Origin: Candidatus Pacearchaeota archaeon
GTDB lineage: Archaea > Nanobdellota > Nanobdellia > Pacearchaeales > GW2011-AR1
Assembly: GCA_016866975.1 (NCBI GenBank)
Contig: VGKP01000002.1
Span: 18,866-82,865 of the forward strand
DNA: 64,000 nt
Direction of reading: 5' to 3'
Of the stretch, positions 11,580 to 42,177 are shown piece after piece. A program made the translations under genes and the position numbers. The notes beneath the pieces were generated by a model, which was not told the origin of the DNA, searched no databases, and worked only from the letters and a program-made list of their open reading frames with translations. Position 1 is the first letter of the stretch, and each line of letters begins with the position of its first letter.

Positions 11580-14573
11580 ATGGTGCATGTCAAGAAGATG
11601 GTGATGACGGGTTTTAAGTCATTTGCTAGAAGGACAGAGATTATATTTGATAAAGGGATAAATGTCATATTAGGTCCAAACGGCTCTGGAAAGTCTAATG
11701 TTGCAGATGCCCTATGTTTTGTCTTAGGCAGGCTATCTATAAAATCAATGAGGGCGGCAAAGGCAAGGAATCTTCTGTTCATGGGATCAAAATACATAAA
11801 GCCTGCAAAAGAAGCCAGTGTGGAGCTGGTATTTGACAATTCTGATAAGGCATTCGCTGTTGCCCAAGAGGAGGTTAATGTCACGAGAGTTGTTCGGCAT
11901 AACGGACAAAGCATTTATAAGATAAATGGAGAAGCCAAGACAAGGGCAGAAGTAATCGAACTTCTGGCCCAGGCAGGCATAGATCCATATGGATTCAACC
12001 TCATACTTCAAGGGCAAATACAATCAATAGTAAGGATGCATGGAGAGGAAAGAAGAAAAATAATAGAAGATGTTGCAGGTATATCTATTTATGAATCTAG
12101 GAAGGAAAAATCTCTCCATGAGTTGGCGAAAACAGAGGAGAAATTAAGGGAAATTTCAACAATCTTAAGAGAGCGCACAGCATATCTCAAGAATCTCGAT
12201 AGGGAAAGGTCGCAGGCACTGCGTTTCAAGGAACTAGAATTATCGGTGAGGAAATGTAAGATTTCTATCCTCAATAGGAAAAGCGAAGATAAGCAGAAAG
12301 AGATAGACTCATTAGATAAGTCTATTCAGGATAAGGGAAATCAAAAAGATAAAGTGAAGGAAAAAGCAAACAAGCTCCAAGGAGAGGTAGTAGCGCTTTC
12401 AGACGAGATACAACGGATTAATAAGAGTATACAACAAGCTACAGGTCTTGAACAAGAGACTCTTCATTCAAATGTAGCAAACTTAAAAGCAGAGCTTGAA
12501 GGACTGAGAGTCAGGAGAGAGAATCATGAACACAGGAAAACCGAGATAGAACGAAGGGTTGAAGAAATAAAGAAGACAATTCCAGACCTTGAAAAGGAGA
12601 TAAGGGATCTTAGACAAGAATCTCCTCTTCTTGCCAAGAAAGCTCTGGAATTGAAGAAGAAAAAAGATGAGTTCGCTAGTCTAGAGGAGGAGAGAAGCAA
12701 ACTTCTGGCCACCAAGACCGAGTTGAATTCGGTCAAAGAGATTCTTAAGGATAAAGAGAGGCAGCTTGCGAGGGTGATTGTTGAATCTGAGGAAGTCCTA
12801 AAGCAACTTGAGATAATTTCTACAAGACTTATTTATTCTAGAGAAGATGAGTGTAATAAGGCCATATCTCTATTCAAGCAGAAGATAAACGAGTATGAAA
12901 AGGAAATGATAAAGATAAGGGAAGAAATGGTCTCACAGGAGAAACTTCTATCCGTTGCAGAGTCAAAAATAGCTCACGCAGAAAGGATAAAACGTCAGGT
13001 GGAGAAGATAGACATATGTCCCCTTTGCCAGAATAAAATAACTGTAAATCATATTGAACACGTTTTCAAAGAATCAGATACCCAGATATCTGAGTCTCAG
13101 GAAATTAGAAGAAATTCTCAAGAATTACTGTCTCAGCTACATTCAAGGATAAAGGAGATCGACCGGGAATTGCGTCAGTCAAAGGATTCTTTACAAAGTG
13201 CAGAATTAGAGTTGGGGCGCCACAGAAATATAAAAGACAAACACGAACAGATTAAGAAAGTTGTTGCTCATGAGAAGTTATTGAAGGAAGAGATTCAGCT
13301 CTTAGAGCAGAGAAGGACTGCCTTGGAGAGCAAGATTTCTAACCTGGCAACAGTACAGGAGAAATATGACTCAAAGATACTTGAGATTGAAGAAATATCT
13401 TCTAGGACAGCAGAAGATGCAGAGACTACTCTACTATACAAAGAAAGGGAACTGGAAGGGACACTAAATATAATAAAAAGGAGTGTCAAGGACCATGAGG
13501 AGATAGATAAAGACCTTAAGGAAATAATAGAAAGAGCGAAAAATAAGTCAAAGCTCCTTCAAGATTTTGAGGAAAAGGAAAGACAGCTAAATGAGAGGTT
13601 TAAGAAGATGTTCGAAGAGAGGGATGACCTTCAGAGAGGGTCTCAGGAAAAAGGGATGACTCTTTCAGAATTGCAATCTGAGATGAGACAGATTGATGAT
13701 CAGATAAACTATTTACGTCTGGGTAAGGCTAGGGCAGATGCAGAGAAAGAAGCTCTTACTATGGAGATGACAGAATTTGTTGGAGTAGAGATAATTTCTG
13801 GAAGCATAGCCTCACTCGAAGAGAGACTGAAGAAATCTCAAGAAGCACTGATGCAGATTGGATCTATAAACATGAGGGCTCTCGAGGTATACGATGATGT
13901 AAAGAAGGAATACGATATAGTATTCGAGAAAGTTACTGTCCTGGAAAAGGAAAAAATTGAGATAATGAAGATTGTAGAGGAAATAGATAGGAAAAAGATA
14001 CGTGCATTCATGAAGACATACAAGGCTATGAACGACTTATTCTCGCAGAACTTCTCCAAGCTATCTTCTAAAGGTGTCGCCTTCCTAGAAATTGAGAATG
14101 CGGAAGACATATTCGCTGGTGGTGTAAATATAGTTGTCAAGCTGGCAAAAGGTAAGTACTTTGATGTAACTTCACTCTCAGGGGGAGAACAGACCCTTGT
14201 GGCTCTTTCTTTGCTTTTCGCAATTCAGGAATACAAGCCATATCACTTCTATATATTTGATGAGATAGATGCAGCATTGGATAAGAGAAATTCTGAGCGT
14301 CTGGCAGCATTGCTACATCAATATATGAAAGCAGGGCAATATATAGTGATCACTCATAACGACTCAATCATTATGAGCTCAAACGTATTATACGGCGTCA
14401 GCATGCACGACGGTGTTTCAAAGGTTCTGAGTCTTAAGATAGATGGTAAAAATTCTCAACAATCTTCTCCTCCTAGTGAAAAAACAGATAGTGAAGAATT
14501 AGAGGAAAGAGCCACAATAGAAATCGAGGCAGAAGCGGCACGAGAACGGGAAGATGATAATATCAAAAGTTAA
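11580..14573 (+). CDS. smc: SMC-type ATPase with hinge replaced by a Rad50-like CxxC zinc hook
   Basis: SMC head motifs FKSF, GPNGSGKSNVADALCFVLG, QGQIQSIV, LSGGEQTLVALSLLFAI, FYIFDEIDAALD. Long heptad-rich arms. Midpoint motif ICPLCQNKITVNHIEHV (13017-13028) instead of a Gly-rich hinge domain. Confidence 0.85.
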   Translation: MVHVKKMVMTGFKSFARRTEIIFDKGINVILGPNGSGKSNVADALCFVLGRLSIKSMRAAKARNLLFMGSKYIKPAKEASVELVFDNSDKAFAVAQEEVNVTRVVRHNGQSIYKINGEAKTRAEVIELLAQAGIDPYGFNLILQGQIQSIVRMHGEERRKIIEDVAGISIYESRKEKSLHELAKTEEKLREISTILRERTAYLKNLDRERSQALRFKELELSVRKCKISILNRKSEDKQKEIDSLDKSIQDKGNQKDKVKEKANKLQGEVVALSDEIQRINKSIQQATGLEQETLHSNVANLKAELEGLRVRRENHEHRKTEIERRVEEIKKTIPDLEKEIRDLRQESPLLAKKALELKKKKDEFASLEEERSKLLATKTELNSVKEILKDKERQLARVIVESEEVLKQLEIISTRLIYSREDECNKAISLFKQKINEYEKEMIKIREEMVSQEKLLSVAESKIAHAERIKRQVEKIDICPLCQNKITVNHIEHVFKESDTQISESQEIRRNSQELLSQLHSRIKEIDRELRQSKDSLQSAELELGRHRNIKDKHEQIKKVVAHEKLLKEEIQLLEQRRTALESKISNLATVQEKYDSKILEIEEISSRTAEDAETTLLYKERELEGTLNIIKRSVKDHEEIDKDLKEIIERAKNKSKLLQDFEEKERQLNERFKKMFEERDDLQRGSQEKGMTLSELQSEMRQIDDQINYLRLGKARADAEKEALTMEMTEFVGVEIISGSIASLEERLKKSQEALMQIGSINMRALEVYDDVKKEYDIVFEKVTVLEKEKIEIMKIVEEIDRKKIRAFMKTYKAMNDLFSQNFSKLSSKGVAFLEIENAEDIFAGGVNIVVKLAKGKYFDVTSLSGGEQTLVALSLLFAIQEYKPYHFYIFDEIDAALDKRNSERLAALLHQYMKAGQYIVITHNDSIIMSSNVLYGVSMHDGVSKVLSLKIDGKNSQQSSPPSEKTDSEELEERATIEIEAEAAREREDDNIKS

Positions 14574-15238
14574 AAGCCTTCCAGAGTCTTTTGTTTGGCA
14601 TCAGGAAAAATCTGCTTCCAAGTTGCCCAAGTAGTCCTAAATATTCCAGTATCTTTAAGTCGCTTCCCATGTTTCTTCAGAAAAGCGATTGTATAAGGAT
14701 CAGATGGATAACCCGAGCCCATATCACCATATTCTTTTTGCAATTTCTCTATAGCTTCTTCTCGTGCAACTTTAGCTAAAATCGAAGCTGCTGAAACCGA
14801 GGGGTAATTTGCATCCGCCTTATGCTCGCAGTATATATCCAAATTTTCAGCTTTGGATATATACCCTATCAATGTCGCTTTCCAGGCTCTTGTGTTAGTG
14901 GATGGACAGTCAACAATTACTTTTATTTTTTCCTTTCCAGAATTCAATTTATTTATTATCTCTGCTGTTTTCATTGCCTCAAGAGTATTCAAATTTATTC
15001 CGTTATTTAGGGCATGGTCAATCTGGTCAGCAGATGTAGAAACAACATGCCATCCTTTGGCAGAATCTTTAATTATATCAGCAAGTTTCATCCTAACCAG
15101 ATGCGTCAACTTCTTCGAATCAGCAACTCCTTCTTCCTTAAGAATTCTCTCATCTCTTTCTTCAATAAGCACTCCTGCAAGCATCATCGGGCCAATTAAA
15201 GGCCCCCTTCCTGCGTCGTCTATTCCAAGTATTAACAT
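14570..15238 (-). CDS. rnhB: Ribonuclease HII
   Basis: MLILGIDDAGRGPLIGPM.. catalytic DxAGRGP motif, internal VDCPSTN and SAASILAKV motifs. Confidence 0.9.
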   Translation of the reverse strand: MLILGIDDAGRGPLIGPMMLAGVLIEERDERILKEEGVADSKKLTHLVRMKLADIIKDSAKGWHVVSTSADQIDHALNNGINLNTLEAMKTAEIINKLNSGKEKIKVIVDCPSTNTRAWKATLIGYISKAENLDIYCEHKADANYPSVSAASILAKVAREEAIEKLQKEYGDMGSGYPSDPYTIAFLKKHGKRLKDTGIFRTTWATWKQIFPDAKQKTLEGF

Positions 15239-30356: not shown

Positions 30357-30653
30357 ATGGCAAGGAACAGAAAGACCAAGGTAATCAAAATCCTCCTTGC
30401 ATTATTATTTTTTACAGTATTATTGGCTGTGTTCTTGTCTTCAAACAAGTCTGCGCCTACTCTAGATTCTTGTGAAAAAGATTCAGATTGTGTTCCTTCT
30501 TCATGTTGCCATCCTGCATCATGCGTTTTAAAGAATCAGGCTCCAGAATGTAAGGGTGTTATTTGCAGCCAGGAATGCAAACCAGGCACTCTGGATTGTG
30601 GTCAGGCAAGCTGCAGCTGTCAAAATAAGAGGTGTGTTGTGAAAAGACAATGA
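30357..30653 (+). CDS. Small secreted cysteine-rich protein (98 aa, 12 Cys in the mature 60 aa)
   Basis: MARNRKTKV + TM/signal helix, then CEKDSDCVPSSCCHPASCV..CKGVICSQECKPGTLDCGQASCSCQNKRC. Stop overlaps the subtilase ATG (ATGA). Confidence 0.55.
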   Translation: MARNRKTKVIKILLALLFFTVLLAVFLSSNKSAPTLDSCEKDSDCVPSSCCHPASCVLKNQAPECKGVICSQECKPGTLDCGQASCSCQNKRCVVKRQ

Positions 30654-33600
30654 GAAAAAAGATAATCATAGTTTTAAGCCTGTTTTTTGTAATTCTAGGA
30701 AGCCATTTTCTTGATGCAGATGACTCTCCTTCAAAAGTCACAGACGACGTGTATAAACATCTTGGAAACAATGATACTGTAGATGTAGTGATAAAAACTA
30801 AACCTAGTAAGAATATTGTATTAAAATCTTCTACTTTTTCTCTTTCTCAATATCAGGCAAAAGCCACTAGGGTAAAGGACGATTTAATTATCGTCAAAGT
30901 TACTCCATCTGAATTGAAAAATCTTGAATTAAATCCAAATGTAGAAAAGATAGAGTTTGCCTACAAAATTAAAGCCTTCTTACAAAACTCTAGGGCGATT
31001 GTAAATTCAACAGCAAGTGCATCGCTTGGTATAAATAATGTAAACTTGACTGGAGTTGGAGAAACAGTTTGCGTCATAGATACTGGAATAAACTTTACTC
31101 ATTCAGACCTAATTGGAAAGAACAAAACTGCTTGTATTGTGGATTGTTTAAATAAAAACTGCGCAGAAAACTGTACTTTAATAGATGATAACGGTCATGG
31201 GACTCATGTCGCAGGAATTGTAGCCGCAAACGGGACATTAAAGGGCGTGGCACCGGATGCAAACCTTATAGGTGTAAGAGTTCTAAATGCAAGTGGAGAA
31301 GGTCATCATTCAAATGCTGTAGATGATTTGACTAATGCAATAAATTGGTGTAAAGATAATAGGAATAATTACAGTATAAGCGTAATAACTATGAGTCTCG
31401 GTACTTCAGATTTATTTCAGAATTATTGCGATGCTGATCTGGCGACTTCATGGACAAGAGCAATTAATAACGCTACAGCACACAATATCTCAGTGATTGC
31501 GGCGACAGGCAATAGTGGAAATAATACTGCTATTTCAGCTCCAGCATGTATTCAAAATGCGACTTCAGTATCATCTGTATCCAAAGTAGATTCAATTGCA
31601 AGTTATAGTAATTACAACAATCTCACTGATTTATTTGCTCCTGGCGGCTTATCAACGAATTCTGCCACATTAATTAACTCTACTTGTATATCATCAGAAT
31701 CTTCTAATGGCTATTGTGGAAAGCAAGGTACAAGCATGGCAACACCTCACGTCGCAGGAGCCGTAGCCTTAATCAAGCAATTTTATCGTTCTCAAACCAA
31801 TGGAGGCAATGCTACGCGGGCAATTATTGAAAACGCTCTAAAAATCTATGGTAAAAACATAACTGTCCCAGCAGGATATAATATCTCTCGTATCGATATA
31901 TACTCTGCAATCATATCTTTAGATGCATTCTCCCCGAATGTCACTCTCGTCTCCCCTTCTAATGCGACTGCTTCGCTCATTATCAATCAAACATTTCTCT
32001 GCAACGCTACGGATCTTGCTATTAAAAACGGCACATTTTACCTCTGGAATTCAACTTCTTCCATCTACAATCAAACATCAATGAATTTGAATGGAAGTGC
32101 GGCAGTGCTTCAAATTAACGTCACAAATATTTCTAGTGGAACCTATGTCTGGAATTGCTTATTTACAGATGAGAACAATAACAAGACGTTTGCAAGTCTC
32201 AATAATACCCTTACAATTTCAGGTTCTATTATTGATCTCGTATCTCCTGCTGGAGATCTTTTTACTAACACAAATCAAACATATGTCTGTAATGTTAGTT
32301 CAAGTCTTAACATATCAAATGTAACATTCTATCTCTGGAACGTTACCAGCTCAGAGATTAATGTCAGCTTTACAAACATATCTGGCACGAGCTCATCCAA
32401 AAACTTCTCAATTAACTTCACCTCAGAAGGAGTTTATTCCTGGAACTGTCTCTTCAAAGATACTTCAAATAATGGGACATTTGCGACATCAAATAAGACC
32501 ATAACCTACGATATTACAAAGCCCGTGATAAATATCACTCTTCCATTAAATGGCAGCTACTATAATGCTGGAAGGTTCAACATAACTTTGAATGAGAATT
32601 CATCTTGTCTTTATTCTCTTGATCATGGTACTAAAAACTATTCCATGAGTTCAATAAATAATAGAACATTCAATGCCACTAACTTGACTCTCGTGCATGA
32701 CCGGAACTATAATGTGACGTATTACTGTAATGATACTGCAGGTAATTCCAACAGCACATTTGCAGGCAATTTCACTATAGACCTTTCAACACCAAATGTT
32801 ACTCTATTAAGTCCTGTTGATTCATATGCTGAGACGGCCTCATCTACGACTCTTAATCTTATCTTCAATGTCACTGACAATCTTAATCTCTCAAGTTGTT
32901 CTCTTATAATCGGCGGTTCTGTGAATTCTACAAACAGCACTTTCATAAATCAGACATTGAATCAGTCATTTCAGATAACTTTCGGGGCAGGAAGTTATAC
33001 ATGGAATGTTAACTGCACAGATATTGCCCAGAACACGGGAAATTCAAACTCTAGGACAATCACAATCTCGGCACCAGTTTCAAGTTCTTCTGGCGGCGGT
33101 GGGGGCGGTGGAGGTGGAGACGGTGGAGGTACAGGAGCAAGCACGTTCAGCCCAAGCCAGGATCAAGTCTCAAGGGGATTTACTCAGGAGGTTAAGAAGG
33201 AGGACAAGATAAAGTTCAATATATTTGATGAGAAGGCCGTGCAACATACTCTTATTGTCGAGACAGTCTCAGATAAATATGTAAATATCACTATAAGGAG
33301 TGAGCCAATCAACTTTCTTCTTGGGGCGGGCCAGAGTATAAAACTCAATTTGACATCTCCTTCTTTCTATAATCTCTACATAAAGGTAGAGAACATAACA
33401 AATGGCAAGGCATCGTTGACAGTGCAGACTATAAATGAGCCTATAGCTGTCCCAAAGGTGGAGGAGAAGACTAATAGTTCTCCAATCACGGAAGTAAGCA
33501 TACCACAAGAGACAAATCAGACAGCACCTCCTTCGGTCACACAATCAACAGGCATATCTGGATGGACTCTTTTCTGGGGGATATTCATAAGCGCGATAAT

Positions 33601-33655
33601 AGCAAGCCTTATAGTCTATCTTATAGACCACAGGAAGAAGACAAAGTCGTTATAG
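30650..33655 (+). CDS. Subtilisin-like (S8) serine protease with tandem sequon-rich Ig-like domains, poly-Gly linker and C-terminal TM anchor
   Basis: Catalytic triad contexts VCVIDTGIN (D), HGTHVAGIV (H), GTSMATPHVAG (S). Signal peptide. Repeated FYLWN(S/V)TSS...(Y)(V/S)WNCLF(T/K)D..NN.TFA units. GGGGGGGGDGGG. C-terminal TM helix. Confidence 0.9.
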   Translation: MRKKIIIVLSLFFVILGSHFLDADDSPSKVTDDVYKHLGNNDTVDVVIKTKPSKNIVLKSSTFSLSQYQAKATRVKDDLIIVKVTPSELKNLELNPNVEKIEFAYKIKAFLQNSRAIVNSTASASLGINNVNLTGVGETVCVIDTGINFTHSDLIGKNKTACIVDCLNKNCAENCTLIDDNGHGTHVAGIVAANGTLKGVAPDANLIGVRVLNASGEGHHSNAVDDLTNAINWCKDNRNNYSISVITMSLGTSDLFQNYCDADLATSWTRAINNATAHNISVIAATGNSGNNTAISAPACIQNATSVSSVSKVDSIASYSNYNNLTDLFAPGGLSTNSATLINSTCISSESSNGYCGKQGTSMATPHVAGAVALIKQFYRSQTNGGNATRAIIENALKIYGKNITVPAGYNISRIDIYSAIISLDAFSPNVTLVSPSNATASLIINQTFLCNATDLAIKNGTFYLWNSTSSIYNQTSMNLNGSAAVLQINVTNISSGTYVWNCLFTDENNNKTFASLNNTLTISGSIIDLVSPAGDLFTNTNQTYVCNVSSSLNISNVTFYLWNVTSSEINVSFTNISGTSSSKNFSINFTSEGVYSWNCLFKDTSNNGTFATSNKTITYDITKPVINITLPLNGSYYNAGRFNITLNENSSCLYSLDHGTKNYSMSSINNRTFNATNLTLVHDRNYNVTYYCNDTAGNSNSTFAGNFTIDLSTPNVTLLSPVDSYAETASSTTLNLIFNVTDNLNLSSCSLIIGGSVNSTNSTFINQTLNQSFQITFGAGSYTWNVNCTDIAQNTGNSNSRTITISAPVSSSSGGGGGGGGGDGGGTGASTFSPSQDQVSRGFTQEVKKEDKIKFNIFDEKAVQHTLIVETVSDKYVNITIRSEPINFLLGAGQSIKLNLTSPSFYNLYIKVENITNGKASLTVQTINEPIAVPKVEEKTNSSPITEVSIPQETNQTAPPSVTQSTGISGWTLFWGIFISAIIASLIVYLIDHRKKTKSL

Positions 33656-39139: not shown

Positions 39140-40576
39140 ATGAATTTTAATTGGATTTTTAATCGTGATGAAAAAGTACCGCTCAATAATGATTCTTCGG
39201 AGAGAGTGGAAGGATTTGAGCACGAGTATGCGATTGAATTTGATGAGATCGCTGATAAAGATGAAAGAGACAACTATATTGTGCAGAAATTACGGGGAGC
39301 GGAGGGCGTTAATGCCCCCAATGTTTATGGTATGCCTGCGCGGCACCGTTTTAATGGAGGAAGAGTGCACATTGATATGAAACATCTTGAAGGGTGTACA
39401 CCAGAAGTTACGAATACATTGGATTTACTGAAATACGATCGAGAGTTAGACCTGTTTGTTCTTGATCTCTTTGGCCCAGCATACAAACCACGAATTTACA
39501 AAATGAGTAGGGACGCTCGCGATACATTTGGCGGACTTCACAGAAACATCATGACTAGGCTTAAACCCGATGTTCGGGACAGAGAATCACTCTTACTTTG
39601 GGCAGTAGTGGAGAAAGTTCTCAATGGAACAGGTTACCAGAATCCTGATGGCCAATACGAACTGCTTCAACGTCGCACATACATAGGAGATGCTCTATCA
39701 GACAACTCTACAGGGGGCAAAGGATCTCGGCCACTTCTTAATCTTAGGGAAGAGAGACACTGTAAGGTAGATGGATGGTACCGTTTTCATGATATTGCAG
39801 GCGATGGTAACATGAATCAGGTAGCACTTGCTCTTAGCCAGGTGCTCTGGAAATGTGTTCTACAGCTAGCAGAAGAAGATAAGCTGCCAAGAATCCCATA
39901 TTATTCAGGAAAGCATTCAAATGAAGCCGTACGCGATATGGATAGCATTTGCTGCCGCCACAGTGACTGGACTCTCAAAGGAACACCTCTTGAATTTAGA
40001 TCTCTCACTTCTGTCTATCGCGAATTCTACAAAGTCATTAGAGGAGAGCTCTATGGTCAGAATACATTTACTGACAAAATAATTGATGTATTTGGAGACA
40101 CAATTCCTGCTCTAGATAATATCAATAATGATCCCTATGCTCTTGCAGGAAGGCTCGATTGGGTGGGAAAGAAATTCATGATTGAATATTTTATGGGTGC
40201 AACAGGAAGAGGTCCTGAAAGCAATGAAGTACAGAGCCTTAATGTAGATTATCACCGTATTGACGAAGGAGGTTTGTTCCATCTTACACGTTTAAACGAT
40301 GGGTGGATTGAGAACGAGGTTTCGGATAAAGAGGCGCGCACCGCCAGAAATACTCCTCCATTGACACGGGCGCATGCACGAGGAGAAATTGCACAAGCAT
40401 TCTCAGAGATTGCCATGAAGAATGGATTATCCATTCTTGTTGACTGGGAATCAATTGCTCTTTACAATAAAAGTACATCTCCTGTCTGGACGTGCAATTT
40501 TCCCAGACCAGCACACACTTATGTTGAATGCGTGAGTGAATTCAAAAGTTTCATCAGTAATTGTTCCAAGGCATAA
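39140..40576 (+). CDS. Pup-ligase/deamidase (PafA/Dop) family protein, divergent paralogue (active-site HENY replaced by HRNI)
   Basis: GFEHEYAIEF, NGGRVHIDMKHLEGCTPE, FGGLHRNI, GSRPLLNLREERH, RFHDIAGDGNM, RLDWVGKKFMIEY, LNVDYHRI, TPPLTRAHARGE, VDWESI. Collinear with PafA motifs as I remember them. Confidence 0.75.
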   Translation: MNFNWIFNRDEKVPLNNDSSERVEGFEHEYAIEFDEIADKDERDNYIVQKLRGAEGVNAPNVYGMPARHRFNGGRVHIDMKHLEGCTPEVTNTLDLLKYDRELDLFVLDLFGPAYKPRIYKMSRDARDTFGGLHRNIMTRLKPDVRDRESLLLWAVVEKVLNGTGYQNPDGQYELLQRRTYIGDALSDNSTGGKGSRPLLNLREERHCKVDGWYRFHDIAGDGNMNQVALALSQVLWKCVLQLAEEDKLPRIPYYSGKHSNEAVRDMDSICCRHSDWTLKGTPLEFRSLTSVYREFYKVIRGELYGQNTFTDKIIDVFGDTIPALDNINNDPYALAGRLDWVGKKFMIEYFMGATGRGPESNEVQSLNVDYHRIDEGGLFHLTRLNDGWIENEVSDKEARTARNTPPLTRAHARGEIAQAFSEIAMKNGLSILVDWESIALYNKSTSPVWTCNFPRPAHTYVECVSEFKSFISNCSKA

Positions 40577-40710
40577 ATTATTACTTTAAAATTCGTGGGG
40601 CCGTGGGTCAGTTTAGCAAAGCTTAAACCTTCGGGAGGTATGCACCTCATACACCAAATAAGCAATATAAACATATAAAATATTAAAAAGGGTTTATATT
40701 TGCCAAATTG

Positions 40711-42177
40711 ATGAAAGACAGGATTACACCTCGCGAAGCATTGGAAAGAAAAGCTGCCCCTCTCGTGTTTTTTGACCATATTCCTCAATATAACCGGAAT
40801 CGAATAATCTCGAGTGAACAGGAGAATGGGCAGAAATTAAGGAAAAAAGTGCATAAGGATTACGAAAAGAAAAGTGGTTGGGAGACCGAATTTACAGCAT
40901 ACTTGTCTGGATTTCTGCCAGATGTGGTGAGTCTTGGGGGAAGGATATATGCAGATGCAAACCATGTAGAGTTTGCACGGGCGGAATGCTCAAGCCCTCT
41001 GGAAGCAGTTGTTCACGAGGATGCTTTTGACAGGTTCGGTTTTAATCTTCTCACAGGCACCTTGAGACTTGTTCGTAAGCTCTATAAGAACAGTATAGAT
41101 TTTGGCAATCCGAAAAGGAATTCTCCTCCTGTAAGCTTCGGCTTCCACGAAAATTACAGCACAAAAATAATGTTTGGCCAAAGCAATCCTTCAGGTTTGT
41201 TGGCATTGGTTCCTCACCTAATATCTCGTACAATCTTTGGGGGTGCAGGATCATTACATAAGGCAAATAAATTTTTAAGGGCCCAGCGCTCTCTCTTTGT
41301 TAATAAATTGTGGAGCTTTAATGCTATCAAGGACGAAAGAGGGATAATCTGCACTCGCGTACAGCCACACACAGAGATTTCTGGTCTTCAGAGGCTACAA
41401 CTTACTTGTGGAGACGCCCTTATATCTCCAGTAAATCGCTTCCTTCTTTATGGCACAACAGCAACGGTAGTTGACCTAATAGAAGATAGGATAATTCCAT
41501 TATGTGATTATGACACAAGCTACGCAGTTGAAGATTTTCATGGAATAACTTATGACCCTGAGAACTATATATTAAGAGGGTTCCCATCTAAGAATTGGAC
41601 TGCTCTGGATGTACAAAGGAGGATTCTTGATAGTGCAATTAAGTCTTACTCGCATAGGGATCCTCAGACAAATGCCATTCTGTTTCTATGGGAAGATACT
41701 CTTAATAAGTTGGAATATGATCCATTTCAGCTTGTTGGAAGGCTAGATGCAATTACCAAGAAAGCATTATATACTTGTCTTGATGAGAGATTTCCAGATG
41801 TCCCTGAAGATTCTTTTTGGCAGATGAGGGGCATAGACATGAATTATCACGATATTAATCCAAACTATAGTATTTTTCAGGTAATGCGTTCCGAGGGGAT
41901 TATGGAGGATTTATATTCCAATAAATTATTTTCATGGTATATGCAAAATCCGCCTCCAAAAACCAGGGCGCATTTTAGGGGCAATCTTGCAAAAATTCTA
42001 ATTAGGGCAAAAGAGGATTTAGCAGTCCTTGATGGAGATGAATGGGATAAATGCGTTCCATTATCAGATATCTACAATATTTATCCGAATCTATGGGATT
42101 TAGATCTTTCTATAGATGACCCGTTTAATTCTTACAATGATCGTCTCACAGAGATAAAGGGAATTTTATCTCATTAA
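40711..42177 (+). CDS. Pup-ligase/deamidase (PafA/Dop) family protein, motifs intact
   Basis: GWETEF, GGRIYADANHVEFARAECSSP, FGFHENYS, SRTIFGGAG, AQRSLFV, RGIICTRVQPH, RLQLTCGDALISP, RLDAITKKALY, IDMNYHDI, PPPKTRAHFRGN. Confidence 0.8.
   Translation: MKDRITPREALERKAAPLVFFDHIPQYNRNRIISSEQENGQKLRKKVHKDYEKKSGWETEFTAYLSGFLPDVVSLGGRIYADANHVEFARAECSSPLEAVVHEDAFDRFGFNLLTGTLRLVRKLYKNSIDFGNPKRNSPPVSFGFHENYSTKIMFGQSNPSGLLALVPHLISRTIFGGAGSLHKANKFLRAQRSLFVNKLWSFNAIKDERGIICTRVQPHTEISGLQRLQLTCGDALISPVNRFLLYGTTATVVDLIEDRIIPLCDYDTSYAVEDFHGITYDPENYILRGFPSKNWTALDVQRRILDSAIKSYSHRDPQTNAILFLWEDTLNKLEYDPFQLVGRLDAITKKALYTCLDERFPDVPEDSFWQMRGIDMNYHDINPNYSIFQVMRSEGIMEDLYSNKLFSWYMQNPPPKTRAHFRGNLAKILIRAKEDLAVLDGDEWDKCVPLSDIYNIYPNLWDLDLSIDDPFNSYNDRLTEIKGILSH

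What the first reader, a model, noticed from the sequence alone, without database searches (positions are those of the whole stretch)
11580..14573. SMC head domains joined by coiled coils to a Rad50-type zinc hook instead of a hinge
The N- and C-terminal head halves are unmistakably SMC-type: FKSF, GPNGSGKSNVADALCFVLG, QGQIQSIV, LSGGEQTLVALSLLFAI, FYIFDEIDAALDKRN.
The protein is only 997 aa and has no Gly-rich hinge domain.
At residue about 481 of 997, the geometric apex of the coiled coil, lies ICPLCQNKITVNHIEHV (nt 13017-13028 encode CPLC). This closely parallels the Rad50 hook as I recall it, CPVCGRELTDEH.
No Mre11, ScpA or ScpB gene is adjacent. The downstream neighbour is convergent rnhB.
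I do not know of a described SMC-headed, hook-dimerising protein. If this is the sole SMC of the organism, it implies a different dimerisation geometry for chromosome organisation.
Basis: partly seen in the sequence, partly recalled or inferred. Interest (0 to 1): 0.7.

Follow-up and report, generated by a model that had tools for sequence, protein, structure and literature searches.

The report
Archaeal SMC with a zinc hook
This gene encodes a genuine chromosome-organising SMC protein in which the universal "hinge" dimerisation domain is replaced by the small zinc-hook motif of the DNA-repair protein Rad50, a swap previously found only as a laboratory construct and conserved here across whole lineages of tiny DPANN archaea.

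Summary
ORF 11580-14573 (+) encodes a 997-aa protein (NCBI MBM3232723.1, Candidatus Pacearchaeota).

- **SMC identity.** The ATPase head and arms are canonical SMC: Pyrococcus Smc 1e-97 against Rad50 4.5e-12. No hinge domain is detected.
- **Hook motif.** C480-P-L-C483 sits at the apex of the coiled coil. CPxC is present in all 151 hook-type relatives examined, and it never co-occurs with a hinge.
- **Rad50 similarity.** A profile of the apex region hits only Rad50 zinc hooks in the PDB (E 1.8e-9). A confident AlphaFold model (pLDDT 96) superposes best on the P. furiosus Rad50 hook (TM 0.82).
- **Phylogeny.** In a head-domain tree the hook-type proteins form one clade (99/100), nested among hinge-bearing Woesearchaeota SMCs and sharing neighbouring genes with them. 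This is therefore an SMC orthologue, not a Rad50.
- **Second clade.** Iainarchaeota, Diapherotrites and Micrarchaeota carry a separate hook-bearing SMC clade.

Zinc-mediated dimerisation is inferred, not shown. The kleisin partner was not found, and sole-SMC status was not tested on whole genomes. I found no paper describing a natural hook-bearing SMC; only the engineered B. subtilis Smc(Zh) chimera is reported. Verdict: new variant of a known kind, interest about 0.7.

The parts
11580..14573 (+). smc gene, hook type (997 aa, identical to MBM3232723.1, annotated 'chromosome segregation protein SMC', Candidatus Pacearchaeota)
   Evidence: ORF. Identical database protein P0001. SMC_N 2.4e-56. 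SMC_prok_A 508 bits.
11580..12083 (+). N-terminal half of the ABC ATPase head (residues 1-168). Includes Walker A G32-S39 (nt 11673-11696), arginine R58 and Q-loop Q144.
   Evidence: Aligns to the Pyrococcus Smc head (5XEI) over residues 2-309. The motif residues are invariant in A1. Strand and helix pattern in the AF2 model.
12081..13001 (+). Ascending coiled-coil arm (residues 168-474, about 307 aa, about 45 nm). Predicted interruptions at 332-333, 346-351 and 416-421.
   Evidence: AF2 DSSP helices 168-331, 334-345, 352-415 and 422-474. Colinear with TIGR02169 profile positions 1-476.
13002..13043 (+). Zinc-hook loop at the apex (residues 475-488, KIDICPLCQNKITV), with a two-residue beta bridge between 479 and 486.
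   Evidence: AF2 full-length and apex models, apex pLDDT 96.1. Foldseek top hits are the Rad50 Zn hook 1L8D and 6ZFF, TM 0.81-0.83. Profile A2 against the PDB gives 6ZFF 1.8e-9.
13017..13028 (+). CPLC (C480-C483), the inferred zinc ligands, two per protomer.
   Evidence: Translation. C480, P481 and C483 are invariant in A1 and A2. CPxC is present in 151/151 hook-type relatives.
13044..14063 (+). Descending coiled-coil arm (residues 489-828). Includes H491 and H494, which are conserved only in the close subclade. A strongly conserved discontinuity lies around residues 602-615 (EIEEISSR), and a joint-like break at 731-742.
   Evidence: AF2 DSSP. Conservation profile. His variability in deeper branches.
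14064..14444 (+). C-terminal half of the ATPase head (residues 829-955). Includes signature LSGGE 866-870 (nt 14175-14189), Walker B F890-E895 (nt 14247-14264), the D-loop and H-loop H926.
   Evidence: Aligns to Pyrococcus Smc head residues 298-510. Invariant columns in A1.
14445..14573 (+). Acidic, poorly conserved, low-confidence C-terminal tail (residues 956-997) and the stop codon.
   Evidence: pLDDT below 50 for 956-997. Low conservation.
14570..15238 (-). Convergent neighbour rnhB (RNase HII), overlapping the smc stop by 4 nt. It is a conserved neighbour of both the hook-type and the Woesearchaeota hinge-type smc.
   Evidence: PF01351. The neighbour cluster is present in 40 loci.

Best explanation
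**What it is.** This is the SMC (condensin-type) ATPase of a Pacearchaeota (DPANN) archaeon. In its lineage the central hinge domain of about 160-200 aa was replaced by a Rad50-type zinc hook.

**How it most likely works.**
- Each polypeptide folds back on itself. The N- and C-terminal halves form one ABC ATPase head.
- The two long helices form an antiparallel coiled-coil arm of about 45 nm (shown by prediction).
- At the tip of the arm a 14-residue loop presents C480 and C483.
- Two protomers each contribute their Cys pair to one tetrahedrally bound Zn2+, as in Rad50. This gives a constitutive tail-to-tail homodimer whose heads engage and disengage with ATP (inferred from homology to the Rad50 hook).
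- The dimer is then expected to act as other prokaryotic SMCs do, organising and segregating the chromosome. A kleisin-type partner probably binds the strongly conserved head-proximal coiled coil (inferred; partner not identified).

**Origin.** Because profile similarity to archaeal Rad50 extends through the hook and its flanking helices, the hook was probably acquired by recombination with a Rad50-like gene (inferred).
For: **Head and arms are SMC.**
- PDB Smc head 1e-97 against Rad50 4.5e-12.
- SMC_prok_A 508 bits against at most 95 bits for Rad50 and 121 bits for ASRP.
- Foldseek of the full model hits condensin Smc4 and Pyrococcus Smc first.
- All catalytic motifs are invariant.

**The hinge is absent and the hook is present.**
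- No PF06470 in the protein or in the 120 best relatives. The same precomputed annotation does detect PF06470 in the Woesearchaeota orthologue.
- Hook and hinge are mutually exclusive: 151 hook, 100 hinge, 0 both.

**The hook is homologous to the Rad50 hook.**
- Profile A2 against the PDB gives 6ZFF 1.8e-9, 1L8D 1.9e-9, human RAD50 5GOX 9.9e-6 and 9Q9H 3.7e-4. Nothing else falls below 0.01.
- PF04423 matches 31/33 members.
- The apex AF2 model has pLDDT 96.1. Its three best PDB matches are the Pf Rad50 hook, TM 0.81-0.83 and rmsd 1.9-2.4 A.

**Only C, P and C are invariant across the whole clade.** This fits a site built from two Cys per protomer.

**Orthology with hinge-type SMC.**
- The head-domain NJ tree places the hook clade inside hinge-type SMCs, bootstrap 99/100 and 193/200.
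- Neighbours are shared with the Woesearchaeota hinge-type locus: RNase HII and a ~400-aa protein with Ig-like-fold Pfam hits.

**Functional feasibility.** B. subtilis Smc with its hinge replaced by the Pf Rad50 hook supports normal growth (PMC5344682). The hook and an SMC hinge are also interchangeable in yeast Rad50 (PMC6969161).
Against: - Zinc binding and dimerisation are not shown. Only monomer predictions were possible.
- The window protein by itself does not reach Pfam Rad50_zn_hook at E<=1. As a single sequence it hits 1L8D only at E=0.4.
- H491 and H494 are invariant among close relatives, so a within-chain Cys2His2 site cannot be excluded for this subclade.
- No ScpA or ScpB was found in the 64-kb window or within 10 kb of about 40 hook-type genes. 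In contrast, 13 of the hinge-type loci examined (Aenigmatarchaeota, Asgard-group lineages, one Nanoarchaeia, one Woesearchaeota) carry a scpA homologue near smc, usually directly downstream. A kleisin-dependent mechanism is therefore unverified.
- Relatives nested in the same clade have lost the CxxC altogether. The hook is therefore not indispensable to every member.
Confidence: 0.75

Rival explanations
1. The apex is a within-chain zinc knuckle (C480, C483, H491, H494; Cys2His2). It merely caps the coiled-coil hairpin. Dimerisation, if any, then occurs through arm-arm or head contacts rather than through a shared metal.
For: H491 is invariant and H494 is 99% conserved in the 111 closest relatives. 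There is a weak Pfam match to the C2H2-type zf-Di19 domain, E 0.0045-0.1. The two His residues lie three apart on the first turns of the descending helix.
Against: In deeper hook-type branches position 491 is Y, E or A and position 494 is freely variable, while CPxC stays invariant. The Iainarchaeota-type hooks have no His at all. P. furiosus Rad50 has a His at the position equivalent to H491, although, from my knowledge of Hopfner 2002, its zinc is bound by four Cys from two chains. The profile and fold matches are to the Rad50 hook, not to zinc fingers.
Confidence: 0.08
2. The protein has shifted function. With a Rad50-type hook and no kleisin, it works as a Rad50- or ClsN-like DNA tether or repair factor in a reduced genome, rather than as a ring-forming, loop-extruding condensin.
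For: No ScpA or ScpB lies near any hook-type gene or in the window. Named hits in a ScpA search come only from Woesearchaeota and Nanoarchaeia, never from Pacearchaeota or Diapherotrites. Known hook-bearing relatives, Rad50 and ASRP/ClsN, act without ScpAB (PMC9389158). Neighbours include repair genes: AP endonuclease, RNase HII and, in other loci, an Ogg-type glycosylase.
Against: Head and arms remain canonical SMC in sequence, arm length (about 307 aa) and discontinuities. The head-proximal coiled coil, where kleisin binds in Smc-ScpAB, is among the most conserved parts at 0.87 mean identity. Many hinge-type Woesearchaeota loci also lack an adjacent scpA, so adjacency is a weak criterion. 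No Mre11 is adjacent. The ScpA search listed only 120 of 414 hits, and its word index limits sensitivity.
Confidence: 0.12
3. It is simply an ordinary Rad50 or SbcC, or an ASRP, that has been mis-annotated as SMC.
For: It has a CxxC at the coiled-coil apex and no hinge. Rad50 and ASRP models are matched at low scores.
Against: Rad50 models score 45-95 bits against cut-offs of 700-1087. ASRP scores 121 bits against a cut-off of 300. SMC_prok_A scores 508 bits. PDB Smc scores 1e-97 against 4.5e-12 for Rad50. The protein is 39% identical over head and arms to a hinge-bearing Woesearchaeota SMC and is nested within SMCs in the tree. No Mre11 is adjacent.
Confidence: 0.02
4. The CxxC is not a metal site. 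It would be a disulfide or only a structural turn, and its resemblance to Rad50 would be convergent or compositional.
For: Coiled-coil flanks can inflate profile scores. The Foldseek E-values are modest, 6e-3.
Against: C-P-x-C is strictly invariant in two large clades while the surrounding coiled coil drifts. In a PDB search of 177,635 sequences the only hits below 0.01 are Rad50 hooks, each with the Cys pairs aligned. From general knowledge, cytoplasmic disulfides are unlikely in these anaerobic-type organisms.
Confidence: 0.03

Closest known systems
Canonical prokaryotic Smc of Smc-ScpAB (TIGR02169 SMC_prok_A; Pyrococcus Smc, PDB 5XEI, 4I99)
   Same: The ABC head has all catalytic motifs. 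Head similarity is 1e-97. The intramolecular antiparallel arm is about 300 residues long with joint- and elbow-like breaks. The protein is 39% and 34% identical over head plus arms to a Woesearchaeota SMC. It sits in the same gene neighbourhood and is nested in the SMC tree.
   Different: It has no hinge domain (PF06470), which is the constitutive dimerisation and DNA-binding module. It therefore scores below the curated cut-off, 508 against 729 bits. A 14-residue CPxC loop takes the hinge's place. No ScpA or ScpB has been identified nearby.
Rad50/SbcC zinc hook (Pfam PF04423; P. furiosus Rad50 hook, PDB 1L8D and 6ZFF; human 5GOX)
   Same: It has a CP[VL]C loop at the apex of an antiparallel coiled coil. 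The aligned motif is CPLCQNKITVNH against CPVCGRELTDEH. Profile E-values are 1.8e-9 for the Pacearchaeota type and 1.3e-12 for the Iainarchaeota type. The predicted fold superposes at TM 0.82.
   Different: The head domains are not Rad50-like, scoring at most 95 bits against cut-offs of 700 or more. No Mre11 is adjacent. The arms are colinear with SMC arms.
Engineered B. subtilis Smc(Zh): Smc with its hinge replaced by the P. furiosus Rad50 zinc hook (Burmann et al. 2017, PMC5344682)
   Same: The architecture is the same: SMC head and arms with a Rad50 hook. The chimera supported normal growth and near-normal arm alignment, which shows the design can work.
   Different: That protein is a laboratory construct in a bacterium with ScpAB and ParB. 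This one is a natural, ancient and vertically inherited version found in whole archaeal clades.
ASRP family (archaea-specific SMC-related proteins: Sulfolobus ClsN/coalescin, Halobacterium Sph1/2; NF045487)
   Same: It is an archaeal SMC-superfamily ATPase with a zinc-hook motif at the coiled-coil apex and no hinge (PMC9389158).
   Different: ASRPs are about 600 aa and form a family separate from SMC. The window protein scores 121 bits against the ASRP cut-off of 300, but 508 bits on SMC. Its arms are of full SMC length.
Hinge-less SMC of marine Actinobacteria (Sussfeld et al. 2025, PMC12153180)
   Same: It is a natural SMC-clade protein lacking the hinge, and the authors argue it is not a paralogue.
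   Different: Those proteins are explicitly reported to lack the CXXC motif. They are bacterial and unrelated to the DPANN clades.

Membership tests
SMC (prokaryotic Smc, TIGR02169/TIGR02168) | ABC ATPase head with Walker A, Q-loop, signature LSGGE, Walker B DE and H-loop, closer to SMC than to other superfamily members | tested here: met
   All motifs are invariant. PDB Smc scores 1e-97 against Rad50 4.5e-12. SMC_prok_A scores 508 bits against Rad50 at most 95, ASRP 121 and RecN 41.
SMC (prokaryotic Smc, TIGR02169/TIGR02168) | Long intramolecular antiparallel coiled-coil arm (about 45-50 nm) | tested here: met
   AF2 gives helices 168-474 and 489-828 folding back on each other. They are colinear with profile positions 1-476.
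SMC (prokaryotic Smc, TIGR02169/TIGR02168) | Central hinge dimerisation domain (Pfam PF06470) | tested here: not met
   No PF06470 at E<=1. None in 120 relatives. A local hinge HMM finds it in 100 hinge-type homologues and in 0 of 151 hook-type homologues. No globular apex domain appears in the AF2 models.
SMC (prokaryotic Smc, TIGR02169/TIGR02168) | Score above the curated equivalog cut-off | tested here: not met
   508.4 bits against 729.4 for TIGR02169, and 491.1 against 567.35 for TIGR02168. The deficit corresponds to the missing hinge.
SMC (prokaryotic Smc, TIGR02169/TIGR02168) | Phylogenetic position inside the SMC clade and orthologous genomic position | tested here: met
   The NJ head tree nests the hook clade among hinge-type SMCs, 99/100 and 193/200. 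RNase HII and a ~400-aa neighbour with Ig-like-fold Pfam hits are shared with the Woesearchaeota hinge-type locus. The tree is distance-based and has no Rad50 outgroup.
SMC (prokaryotic Smc, TIGR02169/TIGR02168) | Works with the kleisin ScpA and with ScpB | tested here: inconclusive
   No PF02616 or PF04079 and no ScpA/ScpB HMM hit in the 64-kb window or within 10 kb of about 40 hook-type genes. Whole genomes could not be scanned. Adjacency is also missing in many hinge-type Woesearchaeota loci.
Rad50/SbcC | CxxC zinc hook at the apex of the coiled coil (Pfam PF04423) | tested here: met
   At family level PF04423 matches 31/33 members, best 1.8e-7. The profile against PDB Rad50 hooks gives 1.8e-9. 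The fold match has TM 0.82. The window protein alone is below E<=1 for PF04423. Zinc binding itself is not testable here.
Rad50/SbcC | Rad50-type ATPase head (curated Rad50 models) | tested here: not met
   The best Rad50 model, NF003034, scores 94.6 bits against a cut-off of 700. sbcc scores 28.7 against 478.5.
Rad50/SbcC | Mre11/SbcD nuclease partner, usually encoded next to it | tested here: not met
   No Mre11 or metallophosphatase gene was recorded among the genes with Pfam annotation in the window, which leave roughly 24.6-43 kb unannotated, or in related loci. Whole genomes were not scanned.
ASRP (ClsN/Sph; NF045487) | Match to the curated ASRP model, with length of about 600 aa | tested here: not met
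   121.4 bits against a cut-off of 300. The protein is 997 aa. SMC models score four times higher.

The most novel reading that the evidence does not exclude
**Convergent replacement.** The hinge-to-hook replacement happened at least twice independently in DPANN archaea, once in Pacearchaeota and once in Iainarchaeota/Micrarchaeota. In both clades some members then lost even the hook.

**Kleisin-free working.** These SMCs work without ScpAB. That would make them a natural minimal SMC motor, or an SMC/Rad50 functional hybrid, that needs neither a hinge nor a kleisin ring.
Probability: 0.2. Interest if true: 0.9.

Novelty: new variant of a known kind. Interest (0 to 1): 0.7.

Why it matters
**Why the hinge matters.** The hinge is treated as a defining part of every true SMC protein. 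It has been proposed as a DNA-binding site, a DNA entry gate and a head-contacting element in loop-extrusion models.

**What this finding adds.** Whole archaeal lineages have kept SMC heads and full-length arms but replaced the hinge with a 14-residue Rad50-type zinc hook. If that holds, evolution has confirmed the B. subtilis Smc(Zh) experiment: the hinge's only indispensable job is stable dimerisation.

**What it makes possible.**
- It offers a small, naturally optimised SMC for testing which loop-extrusion models need a hinge.
- It shows that modules move between the SMC and Rad50 branches of the superfamily.
- It shows that annotation pipelines label these proteins inconsistently, as "SMC" in Pacearchaeota and as "AAA family ATPase" in Diapherotrites.
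- It raises the question of whether DPANN archaea use a kleisin at all.

Tried and rejected
- **Single-sequence tests of the hook.** Pfam PF04423 was not reached at E<=1. phmmer against the PDB gave 1L8D only at E=0.4. Both became significant only with family profiles.
- **Foldseek of the full-length model.** It confirms only the SMC-like overall architecture. The rmsd values are meaningless for such an elongated model.
- **Search for a kleisin.**
  - Pfam on ten unannotated window ORFs and on ten neighbours in related loci found none.
  - Local ScpA and ScpB HMMs, built from DPANN and Asgard seeds, were run against all ORFs of 90 loci and found none near hook-type genes.
  - The conserved ORF upstream of the Iainarchaeota-type smc is a multi-pass membrane protein, not a kleisin.
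- **Look-up of window ORF 30632-33655.** It is not on record.
- **Intramolecular Cys2His2 site.** I considered it and down-weighted it because the His residues are not conserved outside the close subclade.
- **Assembly chimera.** Rejected: the identical protein occurs on 6 independent contigs, and there are thousands of colinear homologues.
- **Literature.** Six searches found no description of a natural hook-bearing SMC. The library is incomplete, so this is absence of evidence only.


Full report
**1. Observation**

The ORF at 11580-14573 (+) encodes a 997-aa protein. It is identical to NCBI MBM3232723.1, [quoted passage not shown]. It is found on six contigs from independent samples, so it is not an assembly artefact.

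Nucleotides 13017-13028 encode C480-P-L-C483, within QVEKIDICPLCQNKITVNHIEHVF.

Pfam reports SMC_N (2.4e-56) spanning residues 4-947 and no SMC_hinge at E<=1. NCBIfam SMC_prok_A aligns residues 3-474 to profile positions 1-476. It scores 508 bits, below the 729-bit cut-off. Rad50 models reach at most 95 bits and ASRP 121 bits.

Against the PDB, the Pyrococcus Smc head scores 1e-97 and the best Rad50 scores 4.5e-12. BLASTP against a hinge-bearing Woesearchaeota SMC (P0305, 1159 aa) aligns 1-394 to 1-419 at 39% identity and 557-954 to 752-1159 at 34%. What is missing is the hinge plus a few flanking turns.

The downstream neighbour is a convergent RNase HII gene. No ScpA, ScpB or Mre11 family was detected among the window genes examined; Pfam annotation did not cover roughly 24.6-43 kb.

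**2. Conservation**

All 120 closest database relatives are 58-81% identical and 946-1080 aa long; a few carry inteins. All lack PF06470 and have CP[LM]C at about residue 472-492.

In a 111-sequence alignment, C480, P481, C483, H491 and V495 are invariant. They lie in an island, V..ID.CPLCQSKIT..H..HV, within an otherwise weakly conserved coiled coil. All catalytic head motifs are also invariant.

An exhaustive HMMER search of 1.84 billion cluster representatives showed a clean dichotomy:
- Colinear proteins of about 950-1020 aa have CPxC, down to about 39% identity.
- Proteins of about 1070-1200 aa have a hinge, starting at about 40% identity.
- The counts are 151 hook, 100 hinge and none with both.

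In the deeper hook-type branches only C, P and C remain invariant. H491 becomes Y, E or A, and H494 varies freely.

**3. Nature of the apex**

The full-length AlphaFold2 model has mean pLDDT 74.5. It shows helix 422-474, a 14-residue loop 475-488 with a beta bridge between 479 and 486, and helix 489-586. There is no globular domain.

A model of the 100-residue apex alone has pLDDT 96.1 and the same topology. Its three best matches among 350,542 PDB chains are the P. furiosus Rad50 zinc hook: 1L8D_B and 1L8D_A at TM 0.81 and 0.82, rmsd 2.2-2.4 A, and 6ZFF_B at TM 0.83.

At the sequence level:
- The single window sequence hits 1L8D first, but not significantly (E 0.4). CPLCQNKITVNH aligns to CPVCGRELTDEH.
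- A profile of 33 diverse family apexes hits 6ZFF at 1.8e-9, 1L8D at 1.9e-9, the human RAD50 hook 5GOX at 9.9e-6 and full-length human RAD50 at 3.7e-4. Nothing else falls below 0.01.
- Pfam Rad50_zn_hook is matched by 31 of the 33 members. The window protein is one of the two that do not match.

The apex is therefore a Rad50-type hook by profile and by predicted fold.

**4. Evolutionary position**

I built a neighbour-joining tree of the concatenated head halves (128 sequences, 339 columns). All hook-type proteins, plus four short relatives, form one clade with 99/100 bootstrap support. This clade is nested among hinge-bearing SMCs, and the nearest labelled ones are Woesearchaeota.

The hook-type gene and the Woesearchaeota hinge-type gene share neighbours: RNase HII and a ~400-aa protein with faint Ig-like-fold Pfam hits. 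This fits orthologous replacement rather than a paralogue.

A scan of one genome per GTDB species returned about 36 species with the hook type, labelled Pacearchaeota, Woesearchaeota or Nanoarchaeota. No assembly appeared twice.

**5. A second clade**

Locus L055 (Candidatus Iainarchaeum) encodes an SMC with an intein in its Walker A and a CPVC hook.

Searching with its extein found a large set labelled Diapherotrites, Iainarchaeum, Micrarchaeota and GW2011_AR10 (AJF59989.1, on a 1.24-Mb contig). Of these, 105/120 have CPxC at about residue 488 and 0/120 have PF06470. Five already carry PF04423 in the precomputed Pfam annotation.

Their heads are again SMC: SMC_prok_A scores 520-540 bits with profile positions of about 490-700 skipped, and Rad50 scores at most 127 bits.

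Their hook profile matches the P. furiosus Rad50 hook even better, 1L8D at 1.3e-12. It matches the Pacearchaeota hook profile at 97.3% hhalign probability.

In a 170-sequence head tree the two hook clades are each strongly supported, 193/200 and 200/200. They never group together (0/200). This points to two replacements or to a transfer. It rests on a distance tree with long branches, so I treat it as tentative.

**6. Mechanism**

Shown by computation:
- An SMC head with intact catalytic motifs.
- A fold-back arm of about 307 residues.
- A Rad50-like hook loop presenting two invariant Cys.

Inferred:
- Two protomers share one Zn2+ through four Cys. From my knowledge of Hopfner et al. 2002, this is how the Rad50 hook works.
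- This gives the constitutive dimer that the hinge normally provides.
- ATP-driven head engagement then acts on DNA as in other SMCs.

Feasibility has experimental support. B. subtilis Smc carrying the P. furiosus Rad50 hook in place of the hinge supports normal growth and depends on correct arm length (PMC5344682). The converse swap works in yeast Rad50 (PMC6969161).

The head-proximal coiled coil is highly conserved (0.87). That is compatible with a retained kleisin-type partner, but none was found.
- ScpA and ScpB lie next to hinge-type smc, usually directly downstream, in Aenigmatarchaeota, several Asgard-group lineages, one Nanoarchaeia and one Woesearchaeota genome.
- They are absent within 10 kb of every hook-type gene and from the 64-kb window.
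- A database ScpA search returned named hits only from Woesearchaeota and Nanoarchaeia.

These negatives are weak. Adjacency is not universal, only 120 of 414 hits were listed, and whole genomes could not be scanned.

**7. Rivals**

- **Within-chain Cys2His2 site.** It is suggested by the invariant H491 and H494 in the close subclade. It is disfavoured because the His residues are lost in deeper branches and in the second clade.
- **Ordinary Rad50 or ASRP.** Excluded by the head scores and the tree.
- **Functional shift to a kleisin-free tether.** It remains open.

**8. Comparison with the literature**

Known hook-bearing members of the superfamily are Rad50/SbcC and the archaeal ASRPs, ClsN and Sph (PMC9389158).

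A hinge-less SMC clade in marine Actinobacteria was reported in 2025. It is explicitly without CXXC, and its authors called it a new kind of SMC biology (PMC12153180).

A broad SMC phylogeny placed DPANN sequences among "canonical archaeal SMC" using head blocks only; the passages retrieved made no remark about the hinge (PMC8665677).

Six full-text searches found no description of a natural SMC with a zinc hook. The searchable library is incomplete, so prior description elsewhere cannot be excluded.

**9. Verdict**

It is best classed as a new variant of a known kind: a canonical SMC orthologue with a Rad50-type zinc hook in place of the hinge. It is conserved across Pacearchaeota-type Nanoarchaeota and, apparently independently, across Iainarchaeota and Micrarchaeota.

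Still open are zinc-mediated dimerisation, the partner proteins, single-copy status and the number of origins.

Noticed in passing
L055:8198-12928; proteins P0309-P0428 (e.g. GW2011_AR10 AJF59989.1): A second large clade of SMCs has a CPxC hook at about residue 488 and no hinge. It occurs in Iainarchaeota, Diapherotrites and Micrarchaeota. Its hook profile matches the P. furiosus Rad50 hook at 1.3e-12. It does not group with the Pacearchaeota hook clade in the head tree (0/200 bootstraps).
   Followed up: yes
proteins P0139, P0140, P0143, P0148 (779-804 aa); P0341, P0342, P0344, P0355, P0360, P0364, P0370, P0374, P0387 (about 920-940 aa): SMC-headed proteins with neither a hinge nor any CxxC are nested inside both hook clades. 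The Pacearchaeota-labelled ones have arms about 150 residues shorter. It is unknown how, or whether, they dimerise at the apex.
   Followed up: partly
L015, L055, L090; proteins P0069, P0085, P0092, P0101, P0119, P0129, P0334: Many of these DPANN SMC genes carry a LAGLIDADG intein (PF14528/PF14890). In L055, where the junctions were read, it is inserted right after the Walker A lysine (GSNASGK|C...HN|SN).
   Followed up: partly
L064, L072, L074, L075, L076, L080, L081, L084, L085 (Aenigmatarchaeota and unclassified-archaeon labels): SMCs of about 800-860 aa, mostly Aenigmatarchaeota-labelled, keep the hinge but have arms about 150 residues shorter than usual. In L064, L075, L076, L080, L081, L084 and L085 scpA lies shortly downstream of smc, with scpB further downstream; no scpA or scpB was found in L072 or L074.
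   Followed up: partly
window 39140-40576 (+) and 40708-42177 (+): Two adjacent ORFs match the Pup-ligase family PF03136 (PafA/Dop type), at E 7e-42 and 5e-60. This is unexpected in a DPANN archaeon.
   Followed up: no
L060:2046-4967, L061:9950-12805 (Spirochaetes): These are bacterial SMC-like proteins of 950-970 aa, 25-26% identical to the query. They have neither a detectable hinge nor a CxxC.
   Followed up: no
L073, L079, L082; proteins P0257, P0268 (Thorarchaeota-labelled and unclassified, about 1460-1500 aa): These long SMC-like proteins are not recognised by the local hinge HMM. In L082 they are followed by ScpA-like and ScpB-like genes. They may be the SMC5/6-related archaeal type.
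   Followed up: no
L055:7214-8008, L090:9140-9940, L091:9177-9956: A conserved multi-pass membrane ORF of about 260 aa lies immediately upstream of the Iainarchaeota-type smc on the same strand. In L090 and L091 the Pfam-annotated genes downstream are Lon, ribosomal L10/L1/L11, Spt5, SecE and FtsZ. The upstream ORF is not a kleisin.
   Followed up: partly
window residues about 602-615 of the SMC (nt about 13383-13424), paired with residues 346-351: A nearly invariant EIEEISSR island coincides with a predicted break in the descending helix about 122 residues from the hook. A break lies at the matching distance on the ascending helix. This may be a conserved elbow- or joint-like discontinuity.
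   Followed up: no
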